The translations under genes and the position numbers were made by a program. Below the pieces are notes generated by a model. It searched no databases, was not told the origin of the DNA, and saw only the letters and a list, made by a program, of their open reading frames with translations. 56,363 bases of DNA from a virus (taxonomy: Duplodnaviria > Caudoviricetes), in IMG/VR virus record IMGVR_UViG_3300049454_000020, positions 1 through 56,363 of that record, one strand, 5' to 3'. Below, piece after piece: positions 1-56,363 of the stretch. Each line of letters begins with the position of its first letter. Position 1 is the first letter of the stretch.

Positions 1-160
1 AGGCGTAAGGCCGCGCGCGGAGGTGCGACTTCCTCCCAGGTCCCCGAACCCAGCCATCAAGGCTGGCGAGTCCGAGGAGACGGACATGCAGACCACCCCC
101 ACCCCCACCCCCACCCCCACCCCCACCCCCACGCCGATCCGCTGCGCACACCACAGCGCC
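1..160 (+). repeat. Terminal direct repeat / circular overlap, left copy
   Basis: Identical to 56210..56363 except for one extra ACCCCC unit. Confidence 0.97.
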
Positions 161-4141: not shown

Positions 4142-5227
4142 TCAGACCCTCGCGAACGGCGACGACGCCATGGCCCGCTGCCGGGTCAGCGCCTCAGCCC
4201 ACACCTCGGCCCACCGCCACGCGTGGCCCTCGATCGTCTCCGCGGCTGCGGCGGCCCTGCCGGCGGCGGACATGTCGACACGCAGACCCTGGTTGTCGAC
4301 GAGCCGCCTCAGCAGCTTGTGCCAGTCCTTCGGCGTCTCCGCCAGCAAACCGACGCGATGCCGGGCGTTGAACGCCGCGTACTCCACTCGAGGCGACGCG
4401 ACCCACGGCACCCCGCACGCCGACAGCTCGAGGACCTTCAGCCCGGACTTGGCGCGGTTGAATCCGGTGTCGGCGAGCGGGGCCATCCCGACGCCGAGCT
4501 CGGCCAGTCGCAGCGGCCAGTCGAGCAGGTCCACAGAACCGGTGCAGTCCGGGTCGCGGTCCAGTCCGAGCGCTTCCCGGAGGCCGTTCGGCGGCCCGAC
4601 GCCGCGGTACGTGTGGCCGGCGCGGACGAGGCGGGCGACAGCCGGGCCGACCTGTTGCAGGTCGAAGGGGTGGGAGTGAGTTGATCCGGGCCAGCCGAAC
4701 ACGGGCGAGTCGTGGTGAGGTATGCCGAGGTAGGCGGCGGGGACCCGGTTCGCGAGGACGCGGCCGCGACCGTGGGGGGCGTAGACGGGCAGCAGCGCCG
4801 GCGTCGACACGGTGACCATGGTCGCGTTGCGGCACGCGGTCTCCGCGTTCGCCCACGAGTGGCGCGGGTCGCGGCCCGTCTTCGGGTGCAGGCCCGCGAA
4901 CGCCGGGTTGTTGGGGTCGATCTTCGTGAGGTCGTCGTCCATGTCGACGACGACGGCGACGCCCTTCGCTCGGACCATCGGGATCGCCTGGACCAGATTG
5001 GACAATGACACCCGCTGCATGACGACGACGTCGGCGTCGGGTGGGACGTGCGCGGTGACGAGCTGGCCGGTGCGCTGGTCGAACTCGCCGCCGATCCCCT
5101 CCCGGTCCGACGGCATCATCACCCGCACGTCGAGGCCTTGCGCGCGCAGCACCGCCGCCGGGGCGATCAGCCGGTAGTAGCCGCAGCCGTGGGCGTCTGC
5201 GGGGTAGCAGTAGACGATCATTCTCAC
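4142..5227 (-). CDS. Glycosyltransferase, GT-B fold (GT4-like)
   Basis: GCGYYR, DMDDD, GWPGS, APLADTGFNRAKSGLKVLE motifs. Confidence 0.88.
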   Translation of the reverse strand: MRMIVYCYPADAHGCGYYRLIAPAAVLRAQGLDVRVMMPSDREGIGGEFDQRTGQLVTAHVPPDADVVVMQRVSLSNLVQAIPMVRAKGVAVVVDMDDDLTKIDPNNPAFAGLHPKTGRDPRHSWANAETACRNATMVTVSTPALLPVYAPHGRGRVLANRVPAAYLGIPHHDSPVFGWPGSTHSHPFDLQQVGPAVARLVRAGHTYRGVGPPNGLREALGLDRDPDCTGSVDLLDWPLRLAELGVGMAPLADTGFNRAKSGLKVLELSACGVPWVASPRVEYAAFNARHRVGLLAETPKDWHKLLRRLVDNQGLRVDMSAAGRAAAAAETIEGHAWRWAEVWAEALTRQRAMASSPFARV

Positions 5228-5272
5228 CCCCGTGAGATCAACTTCGTTGAGCGTAACCCTGAAACGTCGGAA

Positions 5273-5914
5273 CTAGCCTGCTGCGTCTCCTCGCTCGGGG
5301 CGGCCGGACGTGTTGCCCATGACCTTGTCGTCGAGCCAGTGGTGGCGCCAGAGCCAGCTTTTGCGGCGCAGGTGCTTGATGGCCGCGCCGGCCTCGAGGC
5401 AGCCCAACGTGAAGTAGCGGTCCTCGCCGGAGTTGACCTGCCCCCGGTCGAGTTCTTTGAACCCGACGTGTTTGGCGAGGTCGGTGCGGACGAGGGTGGT
5501 GATGGTGGTCTCGATCGGGTTGGCGGGGTCGAACTCGTTGAGGTAGTGCCCGACGGGGAAGATCGGGTCGTCGTCGAGGATTCGGGTGGTCCCGTCCGCG
5601 AACTGCTGCATGATCTTGAACCAGGGGTAGACGAAATCCGCACCGGTCTCTTGCTGGTGCTGGACCAGCCACTCGAGGTGTTTGGGTAGGAACTCGTCGT
5701 CGGAGTCGAGGAACGCGACGAAGTCGGTTGTGGCGGCCGTCAGGGCGCGTTGCCGGGTCGCGGCGGCGCCTTCCCGGTCGTTGTCGACCGCGACGTGGAT
5801 GGCGTCGGGTGGCCGGGTTTGGCTGTGAACGCTGTCAATGGCGCGGGTGAGCATGCCGTTGCGGAGCCGTGCCGGATGGGCGGGGATGATGACGGAGACG
5901 GTGGGGCGGGTCAC
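5273..5914 (-). CDS. Glycosyltransferase family 2
   Basis: VSVIIPAH, AIDSVHSQT, FLDSDD (DxD), GED. Confidence 0.92.
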   Translation of the reverse strand: MTRPTVSVIIPAHPARLRNGMLTRAIDSVHSQTRPPDAIHVAVDNDREGAAATRQRALTAATTDFVAFLDSDDEFLPKHLEWLVQHQQETGADFVYPWFKIMQQFADGTTRILDDDPIFPVGHYLNEFDPANPIETTITTLVRTDLAKHVGFKELDRGQVNSGEDRYFTLGCLEAGAAIKHLRRKSWLWRHHWLDDKVMGNTSGRPERGDAAG

Positions 5915-5929
5915 GGGGGGATCCTCTCT

Positions 5930-6589
5930 CTACTGTGGCCGGTCGGGGCGGCCCGATTTTCCGGCGGCCCAGCCGTCATGGTGGATGCCGGTGACCCGGT
6001 CGACGAACACGCCCCGCAGGCCGGCCTGCCGCCAGTCGCGGACCATCTGCCAGTCGCTGGCGTTCTCCCCGTTCGGGTTCCACGTCGCCACCTGCAACGC
6101 CCCCTGCCAGCACATGACGCCGGTCGTGTCGAGGTGCCCCAGCTCGTACGTGTCGTCGCCGATGACCAGGTACGGGTTCCCGCCGACGCGGAAGTCCACT
6201 TTCGACACCGACCAGACGGCGTCAGCGGCCCGCATCGCCTCGATGTGGGCGCGGGCGTGGTGGGGCAGCAGTTCGTCGTCGTCGCCGAGGAAGCCGACGA
6301 ACTCGCCGAGGGCGAGCCGGGACCCGAGCATCCACGGGTACGCGCCGGTGCTGGCCTCGGTGGTCGGGTTCCGCCATGTCTCGTTGATCTGCACCGACCG
6401 CATCCGGTAGTCACCGATGCGGTAGTTGTGCTTGTCGTCGAACTCCTCCGGATTCCGGTCGGAGACGATGATGTGCTCGATCGGCCCGTCCCAGTCCAGC
6501 TTCATCACCGACGGGACGCACCGGTTGAACAGGTCCTGCTCCCGGCCGGGAAATGTCGGGGTGACGATCGACACCAACGGCTCAGCCAA
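5930..6589 (-). CDS. Glycosyltransferase, GT-A fold (GT2-like)
   Basis: VSIVTPTF, GEFVGFLGDDD, SDW; TTG start with GGAGG RBS overlapping the gmd stop. Confidence 0.85.
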   Translation of the reverse strand: MAEPLVSIVTPTFPGREQDLFNRCVPSVMKLDWDGPIEHIIVSDRNPEEFDDKHNYRIGDYRMRSVQINETWRNPTTEASTGAYPWMLGSRLALGEFVGFLGDDDELLPHHARAHIEAMRAADAVWSVSKVDFRVGGNPYLVIGDDTYELGHLDTTGVMCWQGALQVATWNPNGENASDWQMVRDWRQAGLRGVFVDRVTGIHHDGWAAGKSGRPDRPQ

Positions 6590-7526
6590 GGTCCGCCTCC
6601 ACCATCCGCCGCACGATGTCCTTGAACCGGACCTGCGCCTCCCACCCCAGCACCCGCAGCGCCTTCGACGCGTCGCCGCACAGCAGCTCCACATCGGCCG
6701 GCCGGAACCGCTCCGGCGTCGACACGACGTGGTCGCGCCAGTCGAGGCCGACGACGTTGAACGCCTCCTCGCACAACTCGGCCACGCTGTGGCTCTCCCC
6801 GGTGGCGAGGCAGTAGTCGCCGGGCTCGTCGCGGCCCGCTATCAGCGGCAGCGCGGTCATGAACTCGGGCGCCCAGCCCCAGTCGCGGCGCGCGTCGAGG
6901 TTGCCGAGGGCGAGCCTCAACGACCGGTTGCGGCTGGCCTCCGCGGCGGCTTTGGTGACCCTGCGGGTGACGAACTCGGCGCCGCGGCGCGGGGACTCGT
7001 GGTTGAACATGATCGCCGCCGACGCGTGGATGCCGTACGACTCCCGGTAGTTGACGATTGTGTGATGCGCGAACGCTTTCGCGACGCCGTACGGGGAGCG
7101 CGGGCTCATCGGCGTCCGCTCGTTTTGCGGTGTGTCGCGGACGTCGCCGAACATCTCCGACGACGAGGCGTGGACGAGCCGGACTGTGGGGTCGACGTGC
7201 CGGATCGCCTCCAGCAGCCGCAGCACGCCGAGGCCGGTCACCTCGGACATCAGCGCCGGCTGCGCCCACGACGACCCGACGAATGTGATCGCGCCGAGGT
7301 TGTAGACGACCTGCGGCCGCAGGTCGTGGAGGACCGTCTGCAGCGATGACTGGTCGAGGAGGTCCCCCTCGACGAGTCTCAGCCCGGGCAAGTCCGCCCG
7401 CAGCTGCGTCCGGGCCGGCCCCGGACGGCCACGGACGAGGCCCCACACGTCGACTTGTTGCTCGAGGAGCTGCCCGGCGAGGTAGTAGCCGTCTTGTCCG
7501 GACACGCCGGTGATGAGGGCTTTCAC
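6582..7526 (-). CDS. gmd: GDP-mannose 4,6-dehydratase
   Basis: ALITGVSGQDGYYLA, ASSSEMFG, PRSPYGVAK, FNHESPRRGAEFVTR, LGNLDARRDWG, RPADV. Confidence 0.96.
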   Translation of the reverse strand: MKALITGVSGQDGYYLAGQLLEQQVDVWGLVRGRPGPARTQLRADLPGLRLVEGDLLDQSSLQTVLHDLRPQVVYNLGAITFVGSSWAQPALMSEVTGLGVLRLLEAIRHVDPTVRLVHASSSEMFGDVRDTPQNERTPMSPRSPYGVAKAFAHHTIVNYRESYGIHASAAIMFNHESPRRGAEFVTRRVTKAAAEASRNRSLRLALGNLDARRDWGWAPEFMTALPLIAGRDEPGDYCLATGESHSVAELCEEAFNVVGLDWRDHVVSTPERFRPADVELLCGDASKALRVLGWEAQVRFKDIVRRMVEADLG

Positions 7527-23972: not shown

Positions 23973-26012
23973 TCATTCACCTCCTTTGACTTTTCGGCGC
24001 AGCGCCGCGAACCGGGTCGCGGAGTCGCGGCCGATGGTCCGCGCGGTCCGCTCGAGCGTGGCCCGCAGGTCCGCTGTGGACCCGTAGCCGGGGGTGAGCC
24101 GGATCGGCATCGACGACGCGACCATCGCCCCCTCCCGGACCCGGACGGAGGATGTGACCGCGGCGGGGAAGCCTTCCACCGGCACCAGCAGCGCCGCGTT
24201 CAGCTTCCCGCCCTGCACGTCGACGGAGAGGGCGCAGGCCATCATCCGCTCGACCGTGTCCGCGTCGATGCCGTGCAGCAGCGCGCCGGCGACCCACGTC
24301 CCGGACCCGTCGGCGTACTCCCCGGCCCGGACCCGGGCGGCGACGGAGCACGAGTTGTCGTACTGCTGCATCGCCCACCGCGGGTCGGCCCGGCGCGGGT
24401 CGTGGGGGGAGGGGTGGCCGCAGTCGAACGTGATCGTGCCGGCGTTGATGCGGTACACGTCGCCATCGCCGCCGGCGACGAGGGCGGGTTTGTTGTTGAA
24501 CTCGGAGTAGTCGATCCCGCGTGGCGCTTTCACGTTCCGGCCCGAGGCCCGGAACGCGCGGTGCGCGACGTCGCCGGGCGCGAGGAGCCCGAAGACGCGG
24601 CCTTCGGGGGTGATGTGCAACGCCCCGAACGGTGGCCGCTCTCGGGGCTCGTCGAACCACCACTCGGGCCACAGCTCGGGGATGGTGATGGTGTACGCGG
24701 CGGCGGTGACGACGGTGGGGCCGGGTGGCGGGGTGGGCATGTCGGCTGCCTCCGGTGGCTCGGCCATCTCGTCGAGGATGATCTCCGCTTCGATGAACGC
24801 CTGCTCGGCGCACAGGGTGGCGGACCGGATCCGGCCTTTGTGGACAATGACCTTCGGCTCCCCGACCGGCTCCGGTGGCATGGGCTCGATGACGATCGGC
24901 GGCAGCTCCTCCACCGTCGGCTCGGCGTCGGGGACCTGGATCGCGTAGCCGTCTCCCGGCAACTCCATGGGCAGCAGCGCGGGCGCGGGGTAGATCAGCT
25001 CCACGTCTTCCTCGAACGTGTTGTCGCCGCGGATCGACACGCCGCGCAGCATTCGCAGCCGCATCAGGCGCAGCGCCTCGGCGCCGTAAAGGCCGGAGTC
25101 GTCCATGACGCCTCGGACGTTGATGAGGCTGGCCTCGTCGCGCCAGATCTCATCCATCCGCCCGACGATGACGGAGCCGTCGTGGCCGTCGTCCTCCTCC
25201 GGCTGCCACTTCAACGCCAACGGCAGCGGAGCCCACTCCAACGAGCCGGGCGCGAACTGGCGGCCGTCGCCGGACCACACGCCCTCCGGCGCGATGACGC
25301 CGTGGAACGGCGTCCCGTCGGGAAGGTCGGGAACGACGTCCTCGGCGGGCTCCAGGAGGATCTCGTCGCCCACGGCTGCGGTCATGGCCTGATTGTCCAC
25401 TCGCCCGAACGGGATGTCGATATTGGAACCTGCGAACGCGACCCGTAGCCGGTCGAACACCACCGGCCCGCACCGGTTCAGCAGTGTCTCGACCACGCCG
25501 GGGTCGTCGGTGTACTGCAACGTGAGGTGCGCGACGCGGGGCTCGCGCTGCTCGGGCATGCACTCGGCGAACGGCTCGAACGCCGCGTCGAGGCCGGCGT
25601 GGAATTCGGCGACCGCGTCTCCGGACAGGCCCAAAACGACGCAGGTGTCGACGTCGGGCTTGTCGGGGTTGAACAGCGACAACGCGAACCCGTCCGCGGT
25701 GAACGGCTCCACCGTCGCCGCGTAGGCGCGGGCGGCTTCGACGAGCGCGGCCTGCTCCTCGGGGGTCCAGTCGGCGGCGTCGCCGAGGTACAGGCCGGTC
25801 ATGTGCAACTGCTCGGCTGGCTCGCCGCCCCCGACCGCGAGACGTGCGGCGTGGCCGGCGGCGGGAAGGGCAGCGACCATCGCCCCGGTCTGCACCTCGG
25901 CAGCCGCGACCATCGTGGACGTTTCCGGTATCGGGGCGGCGGGGTCAGTCGGCTCGGCCAAGACCGCAGGCGCGTAGTTCCCGGCCATCCTCGCCCCCAT
26001 CGGATCAGTCAC
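23973..26012 (-). CDS. 2H-phosphoesterase domain fused to capsid maturation protease region
   Basis: HMT and HLT (two HxT motifs) in N-terminal third; then PEG..SGDGR.F, GH...VG, GVSI and a second repeat-like domain. Confidence 0.75.
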   Translation of the reverse strand: MTDPMGARMAGNYAPAVLAEPTDPAAPIPETSTMVAAAEVQTGAMVAALPAAGHAARLAVGGGEPAEQLHMTGLYLGDAADWTPEEQAALVEAARAYAATVEPFTADGFALSLFNPDKPDVDTCVVLGLSGDAVAEFHAGLDAAFEPFAECMPEQREPRVAHLTLQYTDDPGVVETLLNRCGPVVFDRLRVAFAGSNIDIPFGRVDNQAMTAAVGDEILLEPAEDVVPDLPDGTPFHGVIAPEGVWSGDGRQFAPGSLEWAPLPLALKWQPEEDDGHDGSVIVGRMDEIWRDEASLINVRGVMDDSGLYGAEALRLMRLRMLRGVSIRGDNTFEEDVELIYPAPALLPMELPGDGYAIQVPDAEPTVEELPPIVIEPMPPEPVGEPKVIVHKGRIRSATLCAEQAFIEAEIILDEMAEPPEAADMPTPPPGPTVVTAAAYTITIPELWPEWWFDEPRERPPFGALHITPEGRVFGLLAPGDVAHRAFRASGRNVKAPRGIDYSEFNNKPALVAGGDGDVYRINAGTITFDCGHPSPHDPRRADPRWAMQQYDNSCSVAARVRAGEYADGSGTWVAGALLHGIDADTVERMMACALSVDVQGGKLNAALLVPVEGFPAAVTSSVRVREGAMVASSMPIRLTPGYGSTADLRATLERTARTIGRDSATRFAALRRKVKGGE

Positions 26013-28081
26013 CTTCTGCCCGCCGCCTTCCGTCTCGGCCTCGGCGTGCCACGCAAGGCCGCCAAGGCCGCCTGTGTCTGCGCGATCAGCGCATCCACTC
26101 GCTGGCCCGTGTCGGGGTCAGTCTCCTCGCCGCCAGCCAACACGTCCCGCAGAGCCGACAGCCGCTCGTTCAACGCCGTGATCCGCTCGGTCCTCGACAG
26201 AGCCGGTAATACCTCGACGTCCAATAGTCGGTACTCGCTGCCGAATTGGGTCCTCCGGACGCCGCGGTCGGCGACGACCCTGAGGGGCAGCCCCCGCTCG
26301 AGCAGCATCTCGGCCTCGCCGCCCTGCAAACGCACCGCCCCGGTCCCCTTGGGGACGAGGAGCCGCATGAGGACGCCGGGGTCGCCGTCGTTGAAATCTG
26401 AGGCGAAGCTCCGCGCGGTCCGCTCCCGCGCTGAGGTGGACACGTAGGCGTCCTCAAGCCACTCAAAACCGGTGAGGTCGTGGCCGAGTCGGCGGTCGCC
26501 GAAGATGTGCCTGCCGGTGTCCATGCCTCGCCACATCTCAACGTCGGCGCGGAGGCGGGCGTGGTCGTAGATCGAGTCGAGGCGGGCGATCCGAGCGAGA
26601 GCGTCTGAACGTGCCGCGCTCAGCTCGGCCGGCGAGAAGCGTTGGCTGGACGTGCCTCTCAACCAGCCATTTATCGACTCGTAGCCTGGTCCTTGATAGT
26701 CGCGGAGGTCGCGGAAACGCTGTGCGGCTTCGGCTTGGGTCCAGCCGGTTTCGGCCTCGACCTGTAGCTTCACGCCGAGTTGGCCGGGGGTGGCGTCGAG
26801 GGCTGCGTCGTCCTTCAGGGCGCGGGCGATACGGGCGTCGAAATCGTTGGCGTCGGGCTCCGGGATGATGGCGCGGACCTGTGCCCGGTCCAACGGGACC
26901 ATGTCGCTACCCAGTTGCAGGACGTGGCCCTGCCGGTGGACGTCGACCAGCTCCCCGTCCGCGAAGTCGGTCCCGGCGACCAACGCCTTGTGCCGGGCCT
27001 CGTCGAACGGGACCCGGTCGCCGGCGTTGTCGATCGCGGTGAGGCCGCGTGTCTGCGCCAGCCGTTGCGCCTCGGCCCGGACGCGGAGCATGTCCCGCGC
27101 CTCCACCGCGGCCCGCACCCCCGCCAGGTCGGCTTCGGGAACACCGGCGTCGACCGCGAACCGCAACCGCTGGGCGAGGATTCTCGCGGTGTCGTCGTCG
27201 AACGGCAGATCACGCCGCGCCCAACCGATTTGGTCGATCTCGGCGGCGAAGTCCGCGACGGGCTCCTGCTCGGCGATGGCCTTTTGGCGGGCTCGGGCTG
27301 CTGCTCGCCGCTCGGCGGGTGTCGCCTCGACCGGGGCCGGCGCGGGCTGCGGCGCCGGTTCGGTGGAGGTGTTCGGCAGCGGGGGCGTGGCCGCGTCGCG
27401 TCTCGCATCTTTGACGACCGCGTCGGCGAGCAGAAAACCTTGCGTGCACCGGCAGCGGAACTTCTCCTGCGGCGGCAGCGTCGGGTCGGCGGGGAAGTCG
27501 GCGTCGAACCCTCCCACCGTGAACTTGGCGTTCAAGTCCACGACCTGCCCGTCGGCGCGTCGGTGCGTGGGCCTCGTTCTCGGGTCGTTGGTCGCGATCC
27601 ACTCCTTGCGCATCTCCAACCCGGACGCGCGGGCGGTCGCGATCGAGCCGGCGTTCGACGCCTCGACCACCGTCGACCGGGCCACGAGGACCGCGCTGCG
27701 GGCCGTCATCCCGGCCGACGCCCGCAACCGGTCGGCGATCTGGTCCACCGACTCGCCGAGCCGGAACCCCTCCAACATCTCGCTGCGGGCCGTCTGCCAC
27801 AGGTCGTCGCCGACCATGTCATACACGTTGCGGGCCTGCGCCAAATAAGCCTCAGCGGCCTGCGATCCGACAGACGGGAACGGGAAGTCGACGTCGGTCG
27901 CGTCGAGCATCTCCGCGTGGACCGTTCCGGCGGTGTCGTCCCACACCCCGGCGACGATCGGCATCAGGTGCCGGTCGACGGCCTCCGTCCACAATGGCTC
28001 GATCGACGCCAGGTCGTCCGGGGACAGGAACGGCTGGCCCGGCTCGTCGGAGTCGGCGGCGACCAAGACAGCTGCGGTCAC
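26009..28081 (-). CDS. MuF minor head protein fused to a VIP2-type ADP-ribosyltransferase
   Basis: KEWIATNDPRTRPTH..ADGQ...CRC (MuF); YESINGWLR, WRG, YVSTS, EAEMLLERG (R-STS-ExE); GTG start overlapping upstream stop. Confidence 0.9.
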   Translation of the reverse strand: MTAAVLVAADSDEPGQPFLSPDDLASIEPLWTEAVDRHLMPIVAGVWDDTAGTVHAEMLDATDVDFPFPSVGSQAAEAYLAQARNVYDMVGDDLWQTARSEMLEGFRLGESVDQIADRLRASAGMTARSAVLVARSTVVEASNAGSIATARASGLEMRKEWIATNDPRTRPTHRRADGQVVDLNAKFTVGGFDADFPADPTLPPQEKFRCRCTQGFLLADAVVKDARRDAATPPLPNTSTEPAPQPAPAPVEATPAERRAAARARQKAIAEQEPVADFAAEIDQIGWARRDLPFDDDTARILAQRLRFAVDAGVPEADLAGVRAAVEARDMLRVRAEAQRLAQTRGLTAIDNAGDRVPFDEARHKALVAGTDFADGELVDVHRQGHVLQLGSDMVPLDRAQVRAIIPEPDANDFDARIARALKDDAALDATPGQLGVKLQVEAETGWTQAEAAQRFRDLRDYQGPGYESINGWLRGTSSQRFSPAELSAARSDALARIARLDSIYDHARLRADVEMWRGMDTGRHIFGDRRLGHDLTGFEWLEDAYVSTSARERTARSFASDFNDGDPGVLMRLLVPKGTGAVRLQGGEAEMLLERGLPLRVVADRGVRRTQFGSEYRLLDVEVLPALSRTERITALNERLSALRDVLAGGEETDPDTGQRVDALIAQTQAALAALRGTPRPRRKAAGRR

Positions 28082-28341
28082 GGCGGGCCCAGGTCGAGCG
28101 CGAAGCCGGGGAACGGTTGCCCGTTCGACTCCCACTGGAGGCCGTTGTCGCCGGGGAACGGCTGGCGGTGGTCTGCGCGGTTGGCCCAGATCACGTCGGG
28201 GATCCCGTCGGGGAACGCGCCGCAGACCTGACCCGCCGCGCCGCCCGAAGCATCATCGTCGGGGGGCTGGTTGTCGTCCCGGTCAAGCGGCGACAGATAC
28301 CGGGCACAGGCGACGCATTGCGGCATCGGGCGGGCCATCAC
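28078..28341 (-). CDS. Small CxxC protein
   Basis: CVAC...CGAFPDGIP..IW...DHRQP.PGDNG; coupled on both sides by GTGA overlaps. Confidence 0.8.
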   Translation of the reverse strand: MMARPMPQCVACARYLSPLDRDDNQPPDDDASGGAAGQVCGAFPDGIPDVIWANRADHRQPFPGDNGLQWESNGQPFPGFALDLGPP

Positions 28342-29396
28342 ACCAACTCCCCAGCCTGGTAGCGGTAGCCACCGTCGATGAGGGCGAAGATGTCCTGCGA
28401 CAGCGGCGACGCGTCGCCGCCCCTGGTGACGACGTCGGCGAACGCCTCCGCCGCCAGCTCGTGTGGGTTCGTCACCGCGTAGTCGGAGATCTGGTCCCGC
28501 GCCAAAGCGGACGGTTTCACCCCGGCGGCCTTCGCCTTCATGGTGACGTGTTTCTTCGACGCGGTCGCGGTCGCGGTGTGGTGGGCTACCACATGCCCGA
28601 ACTCGTGGTGCGCGACCCCGGCCGGGGTCGGCACAGACAACCAGCCGGTCTCAGCGTTCGACTTGAGCGACGCCCGGTACTTCTCCGGGTTGCCGGCGAA
28701 CTCGGTGTTGAACGCGATCTCGTCGAGGTTGCCGTGACGGGTCACGGCGTAGGCATCAGTCGCGGAGTGCAAAGTCGACCTGGAACCGGGCCCGTAGGTG
28801 CGGATCGACGACACCTGCGCTTGGGGGAACATCTCCAAATCTTGGAGGACGGCCTCGCCGTGCTCGCGGGCGATCTGCGGGTCGGAGCCCGTCATGTCGC
28901 ACCGCACCTGCCGTCCCGTGATCGACGAGGCTTCAGCGGCGACGACGGCGGACACCTCGTCGGTAGTCTTCGCGTCGCGGAGGGAAGGCCGCATCGACCC
29001 TTCCTCTCCGTGCGCACCAGACCCACCACCGCCCCCACTGCCGTGGCCTTTCGGGTCCGGGCCGTCGGCGGCCTTTGGCTTCGCGCACGGGCCGGGGTGG
29101 CGGGGGTTCAGGCAGTAGAAACACCCAGCCCACCGCACACGGTCCCCAACCCCGGACGCGACCCCAGCCGCCCGCGCGATCTGTGCCGCTATCGCATCCA
29201 TCACCTCAGCCAACGCTGCGGCCATCGCCGCCTCAGCCCGGTCCTCCCACCCAGCCAACGCGGCGTCGTCAAGGCCCCGAATCCGACGCGAACGCGCCGC
29301 GGCCACCACAACAGCGTCCGCGTCCGGAGGCGACAACACCTCCACCGGGAACTCGGCGTCGTCGACAACCCTGTCAGCGAAAGACGCGACGGTCAC
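28338..29396 (-). CDS. CCHC-tagged zincin-like metallopeptidase
   Basis: HEFGH plus downstream SDYA....ELAAEAF; internal WAGCFYCLNPRHPGPCAKP. Confidence 0.78.
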   Translation of the reverse strand: MTVASFADRVVDDAEFPVEVLSPPDADAVVVAAARSRRIRGLDDAALAGWEDRAEAAMAAALAEVMDAIAAQIARAAGVASGVGDRVRWAGCFYCLNPRHPGPCAKPKAADGPDPKGHGSGGGGGSGAHGEEGSMRPSLRDAKTTDEVSAVVAAEASSITGRQVRCDMTGSDPQIAREHGEAVLQDLEMFPQAQVSSIRTYGPGSRSTLHSATDAYAVTRHGNLDEIAFNTEFAGNPEKYRASLKSNAETGWLSVPTPAGVAHHEFGHVVAHHTATATASKKHVTMKAKAAGVKPSALARDQISDYAVTNPHELAAEAFADVVTRGGDASPLSQDIFALIDGGYRYQAGELV

Positions 29397-30202
29397 GGCA
29401 TCACCTCGACATCAACCGTCCGCACGCCGCCGACGTCGTATTCCCGCCGCACCTTGAACTTCAACCCCCGCTGCAGGACGAGCTCATCCGTGTCGAACCC
29501 CTGCGAACCCATCGCCCCTGTCCCCTTCGGAACCAGGATCCGCATCTCCAGGCCCGTCTTGTTGCCGCTGTACCGGCCCGACGCGCCACCCGCCGTCGTC
29601 GTCGACACGTAGCCGTGATCCCGGAACTCCAAGCCGGTCAACGGCCCGTCGTGCCCGAACAGCTTCGACGCGTCCGACACGCCCCGATGCACGACCACAT
29701 CCCGGTCGAGCTTCGAATGCGCCATACCCGCGTCCAGGCCGGTCGTCATGTCGGTGACCCGCTTCGGGCTGTAATGCAGCACCTTCGGCATCTCCGCGGG
29801 CGGGTTCGCGACGTCGCCGCCAGTGGACCGCAACGAGTTGTTGACCATGGCGTAGCCGTTGTCGCCGTAGTCGTACGCGGCGTCGGAGACCTTGTCCCCG
29901 GACACGCCGGTTCCGCCGAAATCGTCGTCGTCGTAGGTGAGGTCGCTTTCGGTCTGGCGGTTGTACGGCGCGGCTTTCGCGGCTGCGGGCCCGGTGGCGG
30001 CTTTCGACGCGCGGTCTTCGAACGACCCCTTCGCACCGGTGCCACCACCGCCGCCTTTGACTTTTGGGGCGTCCTTGGCCTTGCCGTGCCGCTTCTCGTA
30101 CGCCTTGCTGCCCGGTTTGGCGCACGGCCCCGGATGCCTCGGGTTCAGGCAGTAAAAGCATCCCGCCCAAACCTCGCGGATCTTGGTGTCCACGGGGATC
30201 AC
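29393..30202 (-). CDS. CCHC-tagged VIP2-type ADP-ribosyltransferase
   Basis: YAMVNNSLR, HRG, YVSTT, DELVLQRG; N-terminal WAGCFYCLNPRHPGPCAKP. Confidence 0.85.
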   Translation of the reverse strand: MIPVDTKIREVWAGCFYCLNPRHPGPCAKPGSKAYEKRHGKAKDAPKVKGGGGGTGAKGSFEDRASKAATGPAAAKAAPYNRQTESDLTYDDDDFGGTGVSGDKVSDAAYDYGDNGYAMVNNSLRSTGGDVANPPAEMPKVLHYSPKRVTDMTTGLDAGMAHSKLDRDVVVHRGVSDASKLFGHDGPLTGLEFRDHGYVSTTTAGGASGRYSGNKTGLEMRILVPKGTGAMGSQGFDTDELVLQRGLKFKVRREYDVGGVRTVDVEVMP

Positions 30203-31818
30203 CTGCGGGGGCGGCGGTGCAGCCCCCGGTGACGGCCATTCGGCGACACAGCCGTCAACGCCTTACGGTCCAACGCCGCCAAATGATCCAACGCGAACTG
30301 CGCCGACGCGACCCTGCCCGGAACAGGCGTGCTGGACGGCGGCGCCGCAGCGGGCCTGGGAGGCTGCGTGACGGGCGCACCGGAGGCAGGGCCGGCCGCG
30401 GGAGGCGTCACAGAACCGCCGCCCGCACTGACCGGACCAGGGCTGCCGGCCCCGCCCCCGGAAACTGGGACCGGCCCGCCGCCGGTCAGTTGTTGCACCG
30501 ACTGCGGCGCGAGAGTCTCCGACCCGGCGACCTTCTTCCAGATCATCTCTTCCAGCTCGTCGCTGGTCGGCTTGTCGGACTCGTCGAACCCGGACTCCCG
30601 CCGCAACGCCGTGCCGGTGATCTCGAGCCGGTCGTACAGGTCCTTGGCCGGCGCGGACTTGTCGACCTTCGCCGTCAACTCGCTGGTGTCGTACCAGGCG
30701 ATCAGCTTCCCGCCGTTCGGGCCCACCGGCGACAGCCCCGACGCGCGAAGCATCGGCTGTAGGTACGCCTTCGTCACCGCGCCGCAGATCGTCTCGGCCA
30801 GCGGCGAGAACGTGATCCGGACCTCTTCCTCGGACGCGATCGCGGCGCCCCAATGGTTCTGCTCGCCCATCCCGCCCGACACCCGCTCGCGTGCCACACC
30901 CAACGTGTCGCCGAGCCGGCCCAACTCGTCGGTCCGCTCCTTCAGCAGCCACTCGTCGAGCGGGTCGTCGGCTTTGAGGATCTTCCACTTCTCGATCAGG
31001 TCGGCGGTGAACCGGATCGGGATCGGGATCCCCGCCGACGCGCGGCTCGGGTCGGCGATGTTCTTCGACGCGATGTCGATCAGCATCGACACGAACGGGT
31101 CCGGGGCCTCCTGGTACTGCTCCGGCACCGAGAAGGTGCCCTCCTGCGGGATCAGCAGCAGCCCGTTCATCGCCAACCGGGACACCATCATCGCGATGAT
31201 CCGGGAGTCGATCAGGAAAATGCGGCGCATGATCGGGACCGCCGCCTCAGCCGAAGACGTCGCCAACCACGGGAACTGCGGGTCCGGCTCATGAATCCGC
31301 ATCGGCAAATTGTCGAACGCCAAATCCCGCCACAACGACTCCCCGACCCGGACCTGGAAACCGGACGGGCCGCCGACCCGGATCGCCTCCGTCGAGAACA
31401 CGCACCAATCCGCCGCCGCCAACGGCGCCGCCGGGTCGTCGCGCTCCGCGACAAGCCACCCCTCGCCCGGAATCAAAAGCTGCGGCGTGATCGCCTTCAA
31501 AAACGCGGAATGCCCCGGCCCGCCGCCGCAAAAGTCCTGCATCAACTGAGCCGCCGGCCCGTCCTCCAACGGCTCCGGCTCGTCACCGCCGGGCACGATC
31601 TCAGCCGCGTTCAACCGGATCCGGGACATGGCGCGGGCCTGCCAGTCCATCGCCTGGTTGAACTCTCCCAGCGACCGGCGGAACCCCCACGCCTCCCGCT
31701 GCCACGACTGCGTCAGGAACACCGTCCCGGAGCGGAACATGTCCGGCGTGTACGGGGTCGCCGCCGCGGTCAGGGCGCGCGGTCGGAGGCGGGCAGGGAC
31801 GCGTCGCGTGTCCGGCAC
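30199..31818 (-). CDS. Portal protein
   Basis: WQREAW, PGEGW, NGLLLIP, NHWG, WYDTSEL; Pro/Gly-rich C-terminal tail; first large gene after terminase. Confidence 0.88.
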   Translation of the reverse strand: MPDTRRVPARLRPRALTAAATPYTPDMFRSGTVFLTQSWQREAWGFRRSLGEFNQAMDWQARAMSRIRLNAAEIVPGGDEPEPLEDGPAAQLMQDFCGGGPGHSAFLKAITPQLLIPGEGWLVAERDDPAAPLAAADWCVFSTEAIRVGGPSGFQVRVGESLWRDLAFDNLPMRIHEPDPQFPWLATSSAEAAVPIMRRIFLIDSRIIAMMVSRLAMNGLLLIPQEGTFSVPEQYQEAPDPFVSMLIDIASKNIADPSRASAGIPIPIRFTADLIEKWKILKADDPLDEWLLKERTDELGRLGDTLGVARERVSGGMGEQNHWGAAIASEEEVRITFSPLAETICGAVTKAYLQPMLRASGLSPVGPNGGKLIAWYDTSELTAKVDKSAPAKDLYDRLEITGTALRRESGFDESDKPTSDELEEMIWKKVAGSETLAPQSVQQLTGGGPVPVSGGGAGSPGPVSAGGGSVTPPAAGPASGAPVTQPPRPAAAPPSSTPVPGRVASAQFALDHLAALDRKALTAVSPNGRHRGLHRRPRR

Positions 31819-32082
31819 TGCTCACCCCCGTGATCAGCCGTTGCGGCTCATCATAGGGCGAAGATCGGCGTAGTGGCCTGCGCGGATGGCGGGCGAGCCC
31901 CGCGCCGGGAGGTGGCGGGGCCCGCCGCGCCGCGACCCCGCGCGTCGTGAGGCGGGACACAGCAGGGGCCGCAAGGGGGGCGGATGGCTGAACCGCCGGC
32001 CCGGTTCGGAGCCTAACCGCCGGCGAGCCACCCGACGCGGTCCAGGCCGGCCGACACGGCGACGATCCCCGCGAGGACCGCG

Positions 32083-40597: not shown

Positions 40598-40803
40598 TCG
40601 CTGGTCTCGCTCTCTTCGTTGGGTTCTCCGGCGCGGCGCCGGTGCTCGGCCTGCTGGTCTGCGGTGTCGGGCATCTTGTGGGCGCGGTTGCCTTCCGGGA
40701 GGGAGCATTGGCCGCCGTCCGCGGTGGCCCAGCAGCAGCGGCGGACCCGGTCGAGCCAGGCGACGCCGTCGGGCCGGAACACGTGCTTGGTCACCGTCTT
40801 CAC
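40594..40803 (-). CDS. Hypothetical protein
   Basis: Coupled on both sides; H...C...C.LP..N.AH. Confidence 0.6.
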   Translation of the reverse strand: MKTVTKHVFRPDGVAWLDRVRRCCWATADGGQCSLPEGNRAHKMPDTADQQAEHRRRAGEPNEESETSE

Positions 40804-41486
40804 GCGGTCACCTGCCGGCGGAGGTGCTCGGCCAGCCACTCGCCGACGTGCTGCGTGTACGCGGGCGGGATGGCCTGGGTCAGCTCGCGGGCGTTGGCCC
40901 AGGGCATTCGCATGATCCGGCGGGCGCGGTCGAGGCCTGCGCGCATGTCGCCGTGAGGCCGTCCGTCAGCTCGCCTGCGGCTGGTGGCCGGTCGGTCGTT
41001 TTTCGACAGGTCGCCGTAGACGCCGATGACGCGCCGACCGGAGCAGGCGCAGCCCCCGGCGCCCATCAGGAAGACGTTGGACAGGAATTGGCGGTGCCGG
41101 CGCAGCGTGTACGGGCCGTCGGTGAGGTTGAACTCAGAGCCGCACAGAGTGAGCGAGCCCGGCATGCTGGCCCTGGACACGTTCTCGATCACCCACGGCA
41201 GGCCGGTGGCCTCCAGTGCGGACCTGGTGGCGTCGAGGAGGTGGCCCGTGCCGTCGTGGCCGGTGAGACCGGACAGGGCCGAGTGGTCGTGGCACGGCGG
41301 GCTGGCGTGGATGGCGTCGAACCTTGTCAGGTCCGCGTCGAGCAGCCACGTGAGCGCGTCGGCCCGCACGAACTCGAACGGGTAGCGCGGCTGCGGGACG
41401 CAGTCGACGCCGACCACGTCGAAGCCGGCGCGGCAGTAGCCGACGGCCGCGCCGCCGGCGCCGCAGAACAGGTCGAGGATCCTCAC
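40800..41486 (-). CDS. DNA cytosine-5 methyltransferase (short form)
   Basis: LDLFCGAGG, HASPPC, VIENV, RRHR.F, QAIPPAY. Confidence 0.9.
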   Translation of the reverse strand: MRILDLFCGAGGAAVGYCRAGFDVVGVDCVPQPRYPFEFVRADALTWLLDADLTRFDAIHASPPCHDHSALSGLTGHDGTGHLLDATRSALEATGLPWVIENVSRASMPGSLTLCGSEFNLTDGPYTLRRHRQFLSNVFLMGAGGCACSGRRVIGVYGDLSKNDRPATSRRRADGRPHGDMRAGLDRARRIMRMPWANARELTQAIPPAYTQHVGEWLAEHLRRQVTA

Positions 41487-41713
41487 GTCGCCTCCTCGTA
41501 TCGTGCGGCGATGTAGGCGTCGATCGCGCCCGTGCCTCGGTCGTGGCAGCTCCACGGCACGCCGTTGGCCGCCGCCCACGCCCTCAGCGCGGTCGGTCCT
41601 ATGGAGACGGTGGCGACGGCGACCTGCCGCGCCTCCCGCAGCTCGGCCGCTACCTGCTCGCGGTCCTCGGGGGCGATGACGGGCCACGACAGGGCATTCC
41701 CACGGCGGCTCAC
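41483..41713 (-). CDS. Small protein with Lsr2-like DNA-binding C-terminus (tentative)
   Basis: LRAWAAANG....DRG...IDAY resembles the Lsr2 C-terminal domain. Confidence 0.5.
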   Translation of the reverse strand: MSRRGNALSWPVIAPEDREQVAAELREARQVAVATVSIGPTALRAWAAANGVPWSCHDRGTGAIDAYIAARYEEAT

Positions 41714-41991
41714 GCGACCGCCCCTTGTCGCCGCGCGGTCCCGTCGCGGCCGTTCCACGCGACACCGCCGGCGACGCGGGGGAACTTCTGCGGGTTGGCC
41801 TCCTCGTACCGGCGGCACTCGACCAGGACGGGGCACGCCTCGCACAGGACGAGCGCGCGTCGGTTGGCGGCGGACAGTCCGCAGCCGCCGATGACGAACC
41901 ACTCTGCGGTGTCGGGGCCGCAGGCGGCGCGGTGCCGCCAGCCTTCGCCTCGCGCGTCGAGGCCCCATGCGGTGCGGGTCATGGTGCTCAT
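41710..41991 (-). CDS. whiB: WhiB-family transcription factor
   Basis: W...AAC...WF...C..CPV..EC...VAGG. Confidence 0.85.
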   Translation of the reverse strand: MSTMTRTAWGLDARGEGWRHRAACGPDTAEWFVIGGCGLSAANRRALVLCEACPVLVECRRYEEANPQKFPRVAGGVAWNGRDGTARRQGAVA

Positions 41992-53001: not shown

Positions 53002-53826
53002 ATGACCAATCTCATCCACCGCCACCTCAAGCACCTAAAGGTAGGCGGCCGAAGCCCGAACACCATCTACGACAGAGGCAGAGTCCTCGTCCGAGTCGAC
53101 GCCGAACTCCCCTGGGGCGTCGAGGACGCGGACGGCGAGGAGATCGCCGACTGGTTCGACGGCCGCAAGTGGTCGCCCGCCACCCGCGCCTGCTACTGGA
53201 TGCACCTCTGCTGCTTCTACGACTGGGCCGTCGCCGAGCCGGACGGCCCTACCCTCAACCCCATGTCCAGGCTCATCCGCCCACCCGCCGCCCACCACCT
53301 CCCCGACCCCGTCACCGACGACGAGCTGGCGCTCGCGATCAACCGGTCACCGGAGCAGCCCTACGGCCTCGCCGCCTACCTCGGCTCCTACGCCGGGCTG
53401 CGCTGCGGCGAGATCGCGGCCCTCCAGCGCGAGGACATCACCGAGCAGCGCGTCTTCGTCCGGCACGGCAAAGGCGACCGGCCGCGCTACGTCGACACGT
53501 CCCCGATCCTGTGGGAGCGCGTCAAGGACATGCCGCACGGCGTCCTGATTCGCGGCAAGCGCGGACGGCCCATCGGGGGGCGCACGCTCACGCAAGAGCA
53601 GCACCGGCACTGGGTCAGCGTCGACCTGCCGAGAGTCCACCTTCACCGGTTCCGGCACTGGTTCGCGACCACGCTCCTCGTCGGGGGAGCGGACATCCGC
53701 AGCGTCCAGGAGCTGATGGGTCACGCGTCGCTAGCCACCACCGAGCGGTACCTCAAAGTCGTCGACAAGCACCGCCGGGCCGCTGTCCGGTTGCTCCCGA
53801 TGGTGGTGGCACGAGCCGGGGCTTAG
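53002..53826 (+). CDS. Tyrosine integrase lacking an N-terminal arm-binding domain
   Basis: GLR..E, GKG, HRFRH, LMGH, TERY; only 274 aa. Confidence 0.93.
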   Translation: MTNLIHRHLKHLKVGGRSPNTIYDRGRVLVRVDAELPWGVEDADGEEIADWFDGRKWSPATRACYWMHLCCFYDWAVAEPDGPTLNPMSRLIRPPAAHHLPDPVTDDELALAINRSPEQPYGLAAYLGSYAGLRCGEIAALQREDITEQRVFVRHGKGDRPRYVDTSPILWERVKDMPHGVLIRGKRGRPIGGRTLTQEQHRHWVSVDLPRVHLHRFRHWFATTLLVGGADIRSVQELMGHASLATTERYLKVVDKHRRAAVRLLPMVVARAGA

Positions 53827-55890: not shown

Positions 55891-56290
55891 ACAAGGCAAG
55901 GACAACTACACAGCACAGACCACTAGCCAGGAACCGGGACCCGAAAGGGCAGCAGGAGGGCTATCGGGAAACAAGCCTCCAGCGCGGGGTGACGAAAGCC
56001 AAGCGATCACGAGAACGAGGTCGGGACAGTGCGCAGGACAGGACGGGGATAGCCCCCGAACCGCGAGCGCCTCTAGCCGACACGGACGAACGCGACACGA
56101 CAGCCGAGCAACACCCCCGCCCCCAGGCAGACGACACCGCGCAGACGCGCGACCGGCGCCGGGGGCCACGGACCGCGAGACGCAGCGCAGGCAGCCTGAC
56201 CGACCACTGAGGCGTAAGGCCGCGCGCGGAGGTGCGACTTCCTCCCAGGTCCCCGAACCCAGCCATCAAGGCTGGCGAGTCCGAGGAGAC
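55891..56290 (+). ncRNA. Putative ~400-nt structured, U-poor leader or ncRNA
   Basis: No credible ORF; several hairpins; tRNA-like closure at 56161-56254. Confidence 0.5.
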
Positions 56291-56363
56291 GGACATGCAG
56301 ACCACCCCCACCCCCACCCCCACCCCCACCCCCACGCCGATCCGCTGCGCACACCACAGCGCC
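56210..56363 (+). repeat. Terminal direct repeat / circular overlap, right copy
   Basis: Matches 1..160 with five rather than six ACCCCC units. Confidence 0.97.

What the first reader, a model, noticed from the sequence alone, without database searches (positions are those of the whole stretch)
29076..30169. Identical 19-aa zinc-knuckle-like tag on two unrelated enzymes: candidate capsid-loading signal
Seen: WAGCFYCLNPRHPGPCAKP occurs at 30113-30169 (N-terminus of an ADP-ribosyltransferase) and at 29076-29132 (ahead of a HEXXH peptidase). The peptides are 19/19 identical, yet 12 of 19 codons differ synonymously, so the protein sequence is being conserved rather than recently copied. Each tag is followed by a Lys/Gly-rich linker and then the enzyme. 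Known: the spacing CX2CX4HX3C is one residue short of the retroviral CX2CX4HX4C knuckle, which binds nucleic acid during packaging. Inference: a portable tag that loads interchangeable effectors into the head, via DNA, portal or MuF, for injection. I do not know of a characterised system like this.
Basis: partly seen in the sequence, partly recalled or inferred. Interest (0 to 1): 0.88.

Follow-up and report, generated by a model that had tools for sequence, protein, structure and literature searches.

The report
Shared zinc-knuckle label on phage effectors
Two unrelated enzymes encoded next to the head-assembly genes of an uncultured phage carry the same short cysteine/histidine label, and relatives put that label in front of other enzymes too, so it looks like a swappable address or release tag for proteins that travel inside the virus head.

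Summary
WAGCFYCLNPRHPGPCAKP occurs twice (29076-29132 and 30113-30169, minus strand): 19 of 19 residues identical, 12 of 19 codons different, all synonymous. The rest of the two proteins is unrelated.

The window is a temperate actinophage-like virus. Portal, ADP-ribosyltransferase (ART), HEXXH peptidase, an 87-aa ORF, a MuF-ART fusion and a 2H-protease fusion are chained by five GTGA start/stop overlaps.

A profile of the tag, run against 1.84 billion representative proteins, found 14 hits, 13 of them real. In this small clade the tag precedes four cargo types: ART, a PARP-like domain, the HEXXH peptidase and a GNAT acetyltransferase. It also lies inside a MuF-tag-ART fusion and at the C-terminus of cargo-less mini-proteins coupled to MuF. 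All 9 tags with known context lie between portal and protease.

Homologues of the HEXXH and GNAT cargoes carry one of three other short motifs in the same slot, so the tag is one of at least four interchangeable carrier-cargo junction motifs. None was found in Pfam, PDB sequences or the searchable literature.

"Portable tag on interchangeable head-module effectors" is supported. "Capsid-loading signal" is plausible but untested, and a release or processing role is about as likely. The closest known systems are the T4 capsid targeting sequence, MuF polymorphic toxins and polyvalent proteins.

The parts
30113..30169 (-). Tag copy 1 (WAGCFYCLNPRHPGPCAKP), residues 12-30 of the ART
29076..29132 (-). 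Tag copy 2, identical peptide, residues 89-107 of the HEXXH protein
29393..30202 (-). ADP-ribosyltransferase gene (269 aa); its GTG start overlaps the portal stop (GTGA)
   Evidence: PF03496 E 3.5e-9; phrog_3895; R173, S200-T201 and E240 invariant in 9/9; AF2 ART domain confident, tag pLDDT 34-44; overlap
30029..30112 (-). Lys/Gly-rich linker behind tag 1 (ART residues 31-58)
   Evidence: pLDDT below 50 for residues 40-58
28338..29396 (-). HEXXH zincin-like peptidase gene (352 aa); GTGA overlap with the ART stop
   Evidence: phrog_7153 E 4e-5; HEFGH and distal E invariant in 21/21; AF2 domain pLDDT 97-98; weak fold hits to Zn metallopeptidases, best E 2.2e-3
29169..29267 (-). Predicted helix ahead of tag 2 (peptidase residues 44-76); shared with P0004, P0005, P0010, P0011, P0018, P0022, P0030 and P0063
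   Evidence: pLDDT 83-89; alignments
29001..29075 (-). Gly-rich linker behind tag 2 (peptidase residues 108-132)
   Evidence: pLDDT below 50
28078..28341 (-). 87-aa Cys/His-containing ORF. It is coupled to both the peptidase and MuF. Its homologue is fused to the tag in P0015 and to an H-P-G-x-H-x-Q motif plus the HEXXH domain in P0037
26009..28081 (-). MuF protein with an internal ART domain (start at the GTG that overlaps the 87-aa ORF stop)
   Evidence: PF04233 1.6e-15 and PF03496 4e-9; TIGR01641 1.5e-7, below the cut-off
23973..26012 (-). 2H-phosphoesterase-like domain fused to the head protease/scaffold region
   Evidence: PF13563 1.7e-5, below the cut-off; phrog_859, phrog_18402, phrog_2659
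30199..31818 (-). Portal protein
   Evidence: phrog_776 E 8.5e-95; about 30% identical to actinophage portals

Best explanation
The tag is a small Cys2-His-Cys module, probably zinc-binding. It marks the boundary between a virion-incorporation part (MuF, or a short N-terminal adaptor) and an exchangeable enzyme cargo in head-module effector proteins of a small clade of temperate actinophage-like viruses. The proposed mechanism has four steps. (1) The cargo genes are translated together with portal, MuF and protease. (2) The N-terminal adaptor plus the tag is recognised by one phage-specific factor in the assembling head, which brings the cargo in. (3) The Gly-rich linker behind the tag is then cut, by the maturation protease or by the tagged HEXXH peptidase. 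(4) ART, peptidase and acetyltransferase are thereby freed inside the head and leave with the DNA at infection. This makes the tag a combined address-and-release label of the kind known from the T4 capsid targeting sequence. Shown here: the tag's conservation, its portability, its position in the head module, and its interchangeability with other junction motifs. Inferred, not shown: zinc binding, recognition by a partner, cleavage, packaging and ejection.
For: Selection acts on the peptide, not the DNA: 12/12 codon differences are synonymous and the simulation gave 0/200,000. The tag is portable. It precedes ART, PARP-like, HEXXH and GNAT cargoes and follows different N-terminal parts, namely MuF in P0008, the 87-aa domain in P0015, a helix, a strand-like segment, or almost nothing. 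The context is uniform: 9/9 tags with known neighbours lie between portal and protease, and the window has five consecutive GTGA overlaps from portal to protease. Tags are uniform within a genome. Cargo-tag pairs in one phage are 19/19, 18/19 and 17/19 identical in protein but only 43-46/57 in DNA, whereas between phages identity is 10-17/19. Window versus L003/L004 shows the same three replacements in both paralogues. An analogous case involves another junction motif: P0029 and P0037 share an identical 16-residue stretch inside an alignment that is 40% identical overall. This pattern fits a shared, phage-specific reader. Published framework: T4 internal proteins are diverse but share a capsid targeting sequence (PMC3012670, passages), and MuF/portal-linked ARTs, 2H domains and zincin peptidases are proposed to be head-packaged and processed (PMC5512222 and PMC9503650, passages).
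Against: No experiment or structure supports binding, cleavage or packaging. AF2 gives the tag no confident fold (pLDDT 34-44 and 47-57), though AF2 models no metal. The tag persists in a MuF fusion (P0008), where an address should be unnecessary. Five mini-proteins carry the tag with no cargo; a stop codon is confirmed in DNA for two of them, in L005 and L010. Their tags form a separate subclass that is only 11-12/19 identical to cargo tags of the same phage. The within-genome uniformity rests on three phages, and old gene conversion followed by synonymous drift would give the same picture. The family is tiny, so the result may not generalise.
Confidence: 0.42

Rival explanations
1. The tag is a pure release or processing signal. 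It and its sister motifs are recognition sites where the head protease or the co-encoded HEXXH peptidase cuts cargo off its carrier. Docking is done by MuF or by the N-terminal adaptor, not by the tag.
For: The tag lies between MuF and ART in P0008. Sister motifs lie between MuF and GNAT in P0066 and P0072, and between an ART and a GNAT in P0055. The motif always abuts a Gly-rich linker and then the start of the cargo domain. A HEXXH peptidase is encoded in every tag-bearing phage with enough sequence to judge: window, L004 and L005, plus the P0009 contig. Iyer et al. 2017 propose that such peptidases split polyvalent proteins into functional units (PMC5512222, passages). The mini-proteins end where the N-terminal cleavage product would end.
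Against: Cleavage sites are usually short and extended, not a four-ligand metal knuckle. The four junction motifs share no obvious common cut site. A free mini-protein that equals a cleaved pro-piece has no clear use. No cleavage data exist.
Confidence: 0.22
2. The tag is a nucleic-acid-binding knuckle. It ties the cargo to the packaged DNA so that the cargo leaves with the DNA.
For: The Cys-Cys-His-Cys spacing is one residue short of the retroviral knuckle. An aromatic residue is invariant between the first two Cys (Y or F). A Lys-rich stretch follows the tag in the ARTs.
Against: There is no match to any Pfam zinc-knuckle family even at E 10 and none to PDB sequences at E 10. The linker of the peptidase copy is not basic. 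Internal proteins of tailed phages normally enter the prohead before the DNA does (general knowledge).
Confidence: 0.12
3. The tag is a passive structural staple: a small metal-stabilised turn that only keeps carrier and cargo apart, with no specific partner.
For: AF2 does not pack the tag against either enzyme domain. Sister motifs of quite different sequence fill the same slot.
Against: A passive spacer would not need 16 invariant positions across the family. It would also not need to be identical in two paralogues of one phage while differing between phages.
Confidence: 0.08
4. The shared peptide is a by-product of recent duplication, gene conversion or cassette recombination and has no function of its own.
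For: Loci of this type shuffle cassettes. L003 has an orphan N-terminal fragment and a tyrosine recombinase gene next to the MuF-tag-ART gene.
Against: 13/57 nucleotide differences, all synonymous. The DNA identity of the two window copies (44/57) is no higher than that to orthologous tags in other phages (43-45/57).
Confidence: 0.02

Closest known systems
T4 capsid targeting sequence (CTS) of internal proteins and Alt
   Same: A short conserved peptide sits ahead of otherwise diverse, fast-evolving cargo proteins that are carried in the head and injected, and one T4 cargo (Alt) is an ART. Sources: PMC3012670 passages and PMC5512222 passages.
   Different: There is no sequence relation. The tag here is a Cys2-His-Cys motif. 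It is often internal (residues 89-107 in the peptidase, about 474-517 in P0008). It also occurs without cargo. Targeting and cleavage are not shown. The virus is an HK97-like siphovirus-type actinophage relative, not a T4-like one.
MuF polymorphic toxins (Jamet et al. 2017, PMC5576092) and MuF/portal-effector fusions
   Same: Head-module location in a temperate phage; variable C-terminal enzymes including ARTs. The window has a MuF-ART fusion of its own, and the relative P0008 is MuF-tag-ART.
   Different: The two tagged window proteins have no MuF domain. My term search of that paper for 'conserved motif', 'linker', 'cysteine', 'zinc' and 'cleavage' gave 0 occurrences, so no junction motif is described there under those words. 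I did not read the whole text.
Polyvalent proteins with zincin-like MPTase hubs (Iyer et al. 2017, PMC5512222)
   Same: Same repertoire of domains (ART, zincin-like HEXXH peptidase, 2H phosphoesterase, MuF), and the same proposed logic of head packaging followed by proteolytic release. P0055 and P0037 are small polyvalent forms.
   Different: In the window the domains are split into separate, translationally coupled genes, each with its own label. 'Knuckle', 'zinc ribbon', 'Zn-ribbon' and 'linker' gave 0 occurrences in that paper.
Retroviral-type CCHC zinc knuckle (Pfam zf-CCHC)
   Same: Order of ligands (Cys, Cys, His, Cys); first two spacings of 2 and 4 residues; an aromatic residue between the first two Cys.
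   Different: The last spacing is 3, not 4, in every member seen. No Pfam hit at E 10.
Encapsulin cargo-loading peptides (recalled, no call)
   Same: Short label plus flexible Gly/Pro-rich linker plus enzyme cargo, loaded into an HK97-fold shell.
   Different: No sequence likeness was tested. Encapsulin labels are not Cys/His motifs. This is an analogy only.

Membership tests
Retroviral-type zinc knuckle (zf-CCHC, CX2CX4HX4C) | Spacing C-x2-C-x4-H-x4-C | tested here: not met
   All tags read C-x2-C-x4-H-x3-C
Retroviral-type zinc knuckle (zf-CCHC, CX2CX4HX4C) | Match to the Pfam profile | tested here: not met
   0 families at E up to 10 for both tag-bearing N-terminal pieces
Retroviral-type zinc knuckle (zf-CCHC, CX2CX4HX4C) | Binds one Zn ion and single-stranded nucleic acid | not testable with these tools
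   AF2 models no metal; tag pLDDT 34-57
T4-type capsid targeting sequence | Located at the extreme N-terminus of the cargo | tested here: not met
   Near-N-terminal in the ART (residues 12-30), but residues 89-107 in the peptidase and about 474-517 in P0008
T4-type capsid targeting sequence | Conserved label on otherwise unrelated cargo proteins of one phage | tested here: met
   window; L003/L004, L005
T4-type capsid targeting sequence | Sufficient to package a foreign protein; removed by the prohead protease | not testable with these tools
   Needs virion proteomics and reporter fusions
MuF polymorphic toxin | N-terminal MuF domain (PF04233) on the same polypeptide as the toxin | tested here: not met
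   No MuF domain in the two tagged proteins. It is met by the neighbouring 708-aa ORF and by the relative P0008
Polyvalent protein (Iyer 2017) | Two or more effector domains in one polypeptide | tested here: not met
   Each tagged window protein has one recognisable enzyme domain. The relatives P0037 and P0055 have two
ADP-ribosyltransferase, Alt/VIP2-like (PF03496) | Profile match above the curated cut-off and conserved R / S-T / E positions | tested here: met
   36.7 bits against a cut-off of 23.4; R173, S200, T201 and E240 invariant in 9/9
Zincin-like metallopeptidase | HEXXH plus a downstream Glu ligand on a helical/three-strand core | tested here: met
   H264, E265, H268, E313 and E317 invariant in 21/21; confident AF2 model
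Zincin-like metallopeptidase | Significant profile or fold match to a known peptidase family | tested here: inconclusive
   No Pfam or NCBIfam hit; phrog_7153 at 4e-5. In Foldseek the best hit is a putative Zn metallopeptidase (4l7a) at E 2.2e-3, then lethal-factor and Pro-Pro endopeptidase chains, with none at E<=1e-3

The most novel reading that the evidence does not exclude
The Cys2-His-Cys tag and its three sister motifs (H-x-P-G-x-H-D-Q-x-x-H-G; R-D-x-x-G-R/K/Q-F; P-G-Q-R-Y-x-H-G-W-I-P) form a general, undescribed label system of actinophage-like viruses. In this reading each phage uses one label type on all its head-carried effectors, and that label co-evolves with a phage-specific reader (a head-interior receptor or a processing peptidase). 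This would be the siphovirus counterpart of the T4 capsid targeting sequence and of encapsulin cargo-loading peptides, and it could be used to predict ejected effectors or to load chosen proteins into phage heads.
Probability: 0.3. Interest if true: 0.8.

Novelty: new variant of a known kind. Interest (0 to 1): 0.6.

Why it matters
How tailed phages other than T4 and P1 choose which enzymes travel in the head is largely unknown. For MuF- and portal-linked effectors it is inferred only from gene fusions. A short, recognisable label at the carrier-cargo boundary would turn that inference into a testable rule. It would allow ejected anti-host or anti-defence enzymes to be listed from sequence alone. 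It would offer a handle for loading foreign proteins into actinophage heads. The observation that labels match within one phage and differ between phages points to a specific reader that could be looked for.

Tried and rejected
- **Complex prediction.** MuF (alignment A5) plus Zn plus the tag (alignment A1), with the tag as partner, scored 0.01 and 0.00 against a mark of 0.32. The verdict was 'no answer' and the controls were not run. It says nothing for or against binding. Three earlier hand-ins met a full queue.
- **Likeness of the pre-tag helix to the MuF N-terminus.** hhalign aligned the expected Trp-led helices, but with probability 0.47% and E 0.12, so the likeness is not supported.
- **GenBank phages.** There was no megablast match for 28000-31900. 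tblastn found nothing for the peptidase, the 87-aa ORF or P0037. The 25 ART hits cover only the enzyme domain, never the tag.
- **Exact degenerate DNA patterns in IMG/VR.** The strict pattern gave 0 hits. The loose pattern found only the two contigs already known.
- **GTDB species genomes.** Only two weak matches, probably by chance, in an Acidobacteriota MAG and a Rhodoferax MAG. I did not follow them.
- **Metagenome contigs.** One real extra locus, L010; the other four matches were 8-17 residues long and I dropped them.
- **PDB sequence search with the tag profile.** 0 hits at E 10.
- **ESM Atlas.** Nothing usable for the N-terminal module.
- **Spurious profile hit.** P0014 in the profile search is a repeat protein that matches only 'GC-x-YCLN', and I set it aside.
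- **Literature strings.** Searches for the junction-motif strings found nothing relevant.
- **Speculation noted, not adopted.** Weak fold neighbours of the peptidase include Pro-Pro endopeptidases solved with N-P-P-containing substrate peptides (titles), and the tag contains N-P-R-H-P (N-P-P-H in mini-proteins). This is only a lead.
Full report
**1. The observation**

On the minus strand, 29076-29132 and 30113-30169 both encode WAGCFYCLNPRHPGPCAKP.
- The two peptides are 19/19 identical. 12/19 codons (13/57 nt) differ, and all differences are synonymous.
- C-x2-C-x4-H-x3-C occurs nowhere else in the six frames of the window.
- BLASTP of the two whole proteins aligns only this stretch (20/22, E 1e-13).
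- In a simulation, 13 random substitutions kept the peptide in 0 of 200,000 trials. Twelve third-position changes kept it in 379 of 200,000.
- The peptide, not the DNA, is therefore what is conserved.

**2. The setting**

The window is an IMG/VR virus record of 56,363 bp with GC 69.5%. It has an integrase (53002-53826) and a tape-measure gene. Its portal is about 30% identical to actinophage portals. No GenBank phage matches it closely.

The minus-strand gene order is:
- large terminase
- portal (30199-31818)
- ART (29393-30202; PF03496)
- HEXXH protein (28338-29396)
- an 87-aa ORF
- MuF with an internal ART (26009-28081)
- a 2H-phosphoesterase-like/protease fusion (23973-26012)

From portal to protease, every gene start overlaps the previous stop as GTGA, five times in a row.

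In the ART the tag is residues 12-30. In the peptidase it is residues 89-107, behind a conserved N-terminal region that includes a confidently predicted helix at residues 44-76.

**3. Relatives of the tag**

A word-based search with ART residues 1-45 found 7 proteins.

A profile of 8 tag regions (A1) was run exhaustively against 1.84e9 representative proteins and gave 14 hits at E<=1e-3. One of them (P0014) is a spurious repeat protein. Scans of IMG/VR, GTDB genomes and metagenome contigs added only loci L003, L004, L005 and L010. The tag is therefore rare and confined to one small clade.

Architectures seen:

| Architecture | Members |
|---|---|
| tag + PF03496 ART | window, P0001-P0005, P0011, L005 |
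| MuF + helical region + tag + ART | P0008, 740 aa |
| tag + HEXXH | window, P0009, P0022, P0030 |
| tag + GNAT | P0006, P0019, P0063 (P0063 has two tags) |
| tag + PARP-like domain | P0010, P0012 (Pfam support below the cut-off) |
| mini-proteins ending 1-5 residues after the last Cys | L005 6295-6528, L010 877-1053 (=P0016), P0015, P0017, P0018 |

For the L005 and L010 mini-proteins the stop codon is seen in the DNA, and each is coupled to the MuF start by a GTGA or ATGA overlap. For P0015, P0017 and P0018 I have no DNA. P0015 is the homologue of the window's 87-aa ORF with the tag added at its end.

All 9 tags whose neighbours I could read lie between portal and head protease: window 2, L003/L004 2, L005 3, L010 2. 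L003 and L004 are taken to be one phage because their MuF reading frames overlap and P0008 spans the join.

**4. The tag is one of several junction motifs**

Homologues of the HEXXH domain (22 found, 21 aligned) carry one of four motifs directly ahead of the conserved domain start:
- the tag: 4/21
- H-x-P-G-x-H-D-Q-x-x-H-G: 8/21
- R-D-x-x-G-(Q/K/R)-F-(A/S)-S-G-G: 7/21
- H-P-x-P-G-Q-R-Y-x-H-G-W-I-P: 2/21

The 32 GNAT homologues show the same four options:
- the tag: P0019, P0006, P0063
- the H-D-Q motif: 6, plus P0019, which has both
- the R-D-x-x-G-x-F motif: 11 or 12
- the H-G-W-I-P motif: 5
- no motif: 2
- P0068 and P0071 are fragments

The sister motifs also occupy the equivalent positions elsewhere:
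- between MuF and GNAT, in P0066 and P0072
- between an ART and a GNAT, in P0055
- after the 87-aa domain in P0037, where P0015 has the tag

In L005 all three cargo proteins share one nearly identical H-D-Q motif, and two of them also carry the tag.

None of these motifs has a Pfam family or a PDB sequence relative. Full-text searches for five motif strings found nothing relevant.

**5. Uniform within a phage, different between phages**

Cargo-tag pairs of one phage are 19/19, 18/19 and 17/19 identical in protein, at 44, 43 and 46 of 57 nt. Between phages, cargo tags are 10-17/19 identical.

By DNA, each window tag is as close to the tag of the orthologous cargo in another phage (43-45/57) as to its partner in the window. 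Yet the window and L003/L004 differ by the same three replacements in both paralogues.

P0029 and P0037 are reported with the same contig count and longest-contig length, so I infer that they come from one contig. They share an identical 16-residue H-D-Q motif inside an alignment that is 40% identical overall.

This pattern is what a shared, phage-specific reader would produce. Old gene conversion followed by synonymous drift cannot be excluded, and the sample is three phages.

**6. Structure**

AF2 models the ART domain and the HEXXH domain well (pLDDT up to 98). It gives the tag no confident fold (pLDDT 34-44 and 47-57) and does not pack it against either enzyme.

Foldseek places the HEXXH domain nearest to Zn metallopeptidases: 4l7a at E 2.2e-3, then lethal-factor and Pro-Pro endopeptidase chains. 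No hit reaches E 1e-3. This fits the 'MPTase' of polyvalent proteins described by Iyer et al. 2017 (passages).

**7. Reading**

Shown:
- a selected, portable Cys2-His-Cys junction module
- on interchangeable enzymes
- in the head-assembly gene chain
- positionally equivalent to three other short motifs

Inferred:
- The cargoes are head-packaged. This rests on analogy with T4 Alt and its capsid targeting sequence and with MuF/portal fusions.
- The tag is read by a common phage factor.

Whether that reading means docking, cleavage or both is open. The MuF-tag-ART fusion, and the sister motifs found between effector domains, argue for a release role. The cargo-less mini-proteins and the metal-knuckle character argue for a binding role. 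I therefore put a combined address-and-release label first (0.42), a pure processing site second (0.22) and a DNA tether third (0.12).

**8. Novelty**

The general idea is in print: T4 capsid targeting sequence, MuF polymorphic toxins, polyvalent proteins.

I did not find this tag, or the set of interchangeable junction motifs, in the sources below:
- the passages I read of PMC5512222, PMC5576092 and PMC9503650 (term searches)
- the library searches

I did not read those three papers in full. Their supplements were not looked at and could bear on this claim.

Noticed in passing
window 1-129 and 56210-56338: A 129-nt direct repeat (99% identical) sits at the two ends of the record. The copies differ in a G-run. 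The record may therefore be a complete genome with terminal repeats or a circular assembly, although it is classed as linear and 82% complete.
   Followed up: partly
window 23973-26012 (-): The head protease/scaffold protein carries an N-terminal 2H-phosphoesterase-like domain (PF13563 1.7e-5, below the cut-off; phrog_2659). This makes it a third kind of enzyme tied to a head-assembly protein in this phage. Iyer et al. suggest that such 2H fusions degrade host immune nucleotide signals.
   Followed up: partly
window 26009-28081 (-); L005 6525-8693; P0008: The MuF gene has a variable internal slot, holding an ART in the window, a PI3/PI4-kinase-like segment in L005 (PF00454 at 0.002, below the cut-off), and nothing in P0008. 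In the window and L005 the slot lies ahead of a conserved C-terminal helix that ends the protein; in P0008 that helix continues into the tag and an ART.
   Followed up: partly
P0023-P0072 (homologues of the HEXXH and GNAT cargoes): Three further short motifs fill the slot of the tag just before the cargo domain: H-x-P-G-x-H-D-Q-x-x-H-G, R-D-x-x-G-R/K/Q-F, and P-G-Q-R-Y-x-H-G-W-I-P. No Pfam family and no paper was found for them.
   Followed up: partly
window 28078-28341 (-); L004 6810-7064; L005 10611-10835; P0037: The 87-aa Cys/His ORF directly follows the HEXXH peptidase gene in 3 of 3 loci, and its domain is fused to the peptidase domain in P0037. This suggests a functional pair. It belongs to an unnamed family of small phage and actinobacterial proteins (Atlas scores 0.93-0.94).
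   Followed up: partly
L003 1476-1620 and 1694-2671: Next to the MuF-tag-ART gene lie an orphan copy of the N-terminal adaptor segment (no tag, no cargo) and a tyrosine-recombinase-like gene, both inside the head module. This could be a trace of cassette exchange.
   Followed up: no
window 30199-30202, 29393-29396, 28338-28341, 28078-28081, 26009-26012: Five consecutive GTGA stop/start overlaps link portal, ART, peptidase, the 87-aa ORF, MuF and protease. This implies coupled translation of the effectors with head-assembly proteins.
   Followed up: yes
window 4142-6694 (-), 40800-41765 (-), 53002-53826 (+): The window also holds three glycosyltransferase-like genes, a weak C5 DNA-methylase-like ORF and a tyrosine integrase, so the phage is probably temperate.
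   Followed up: no
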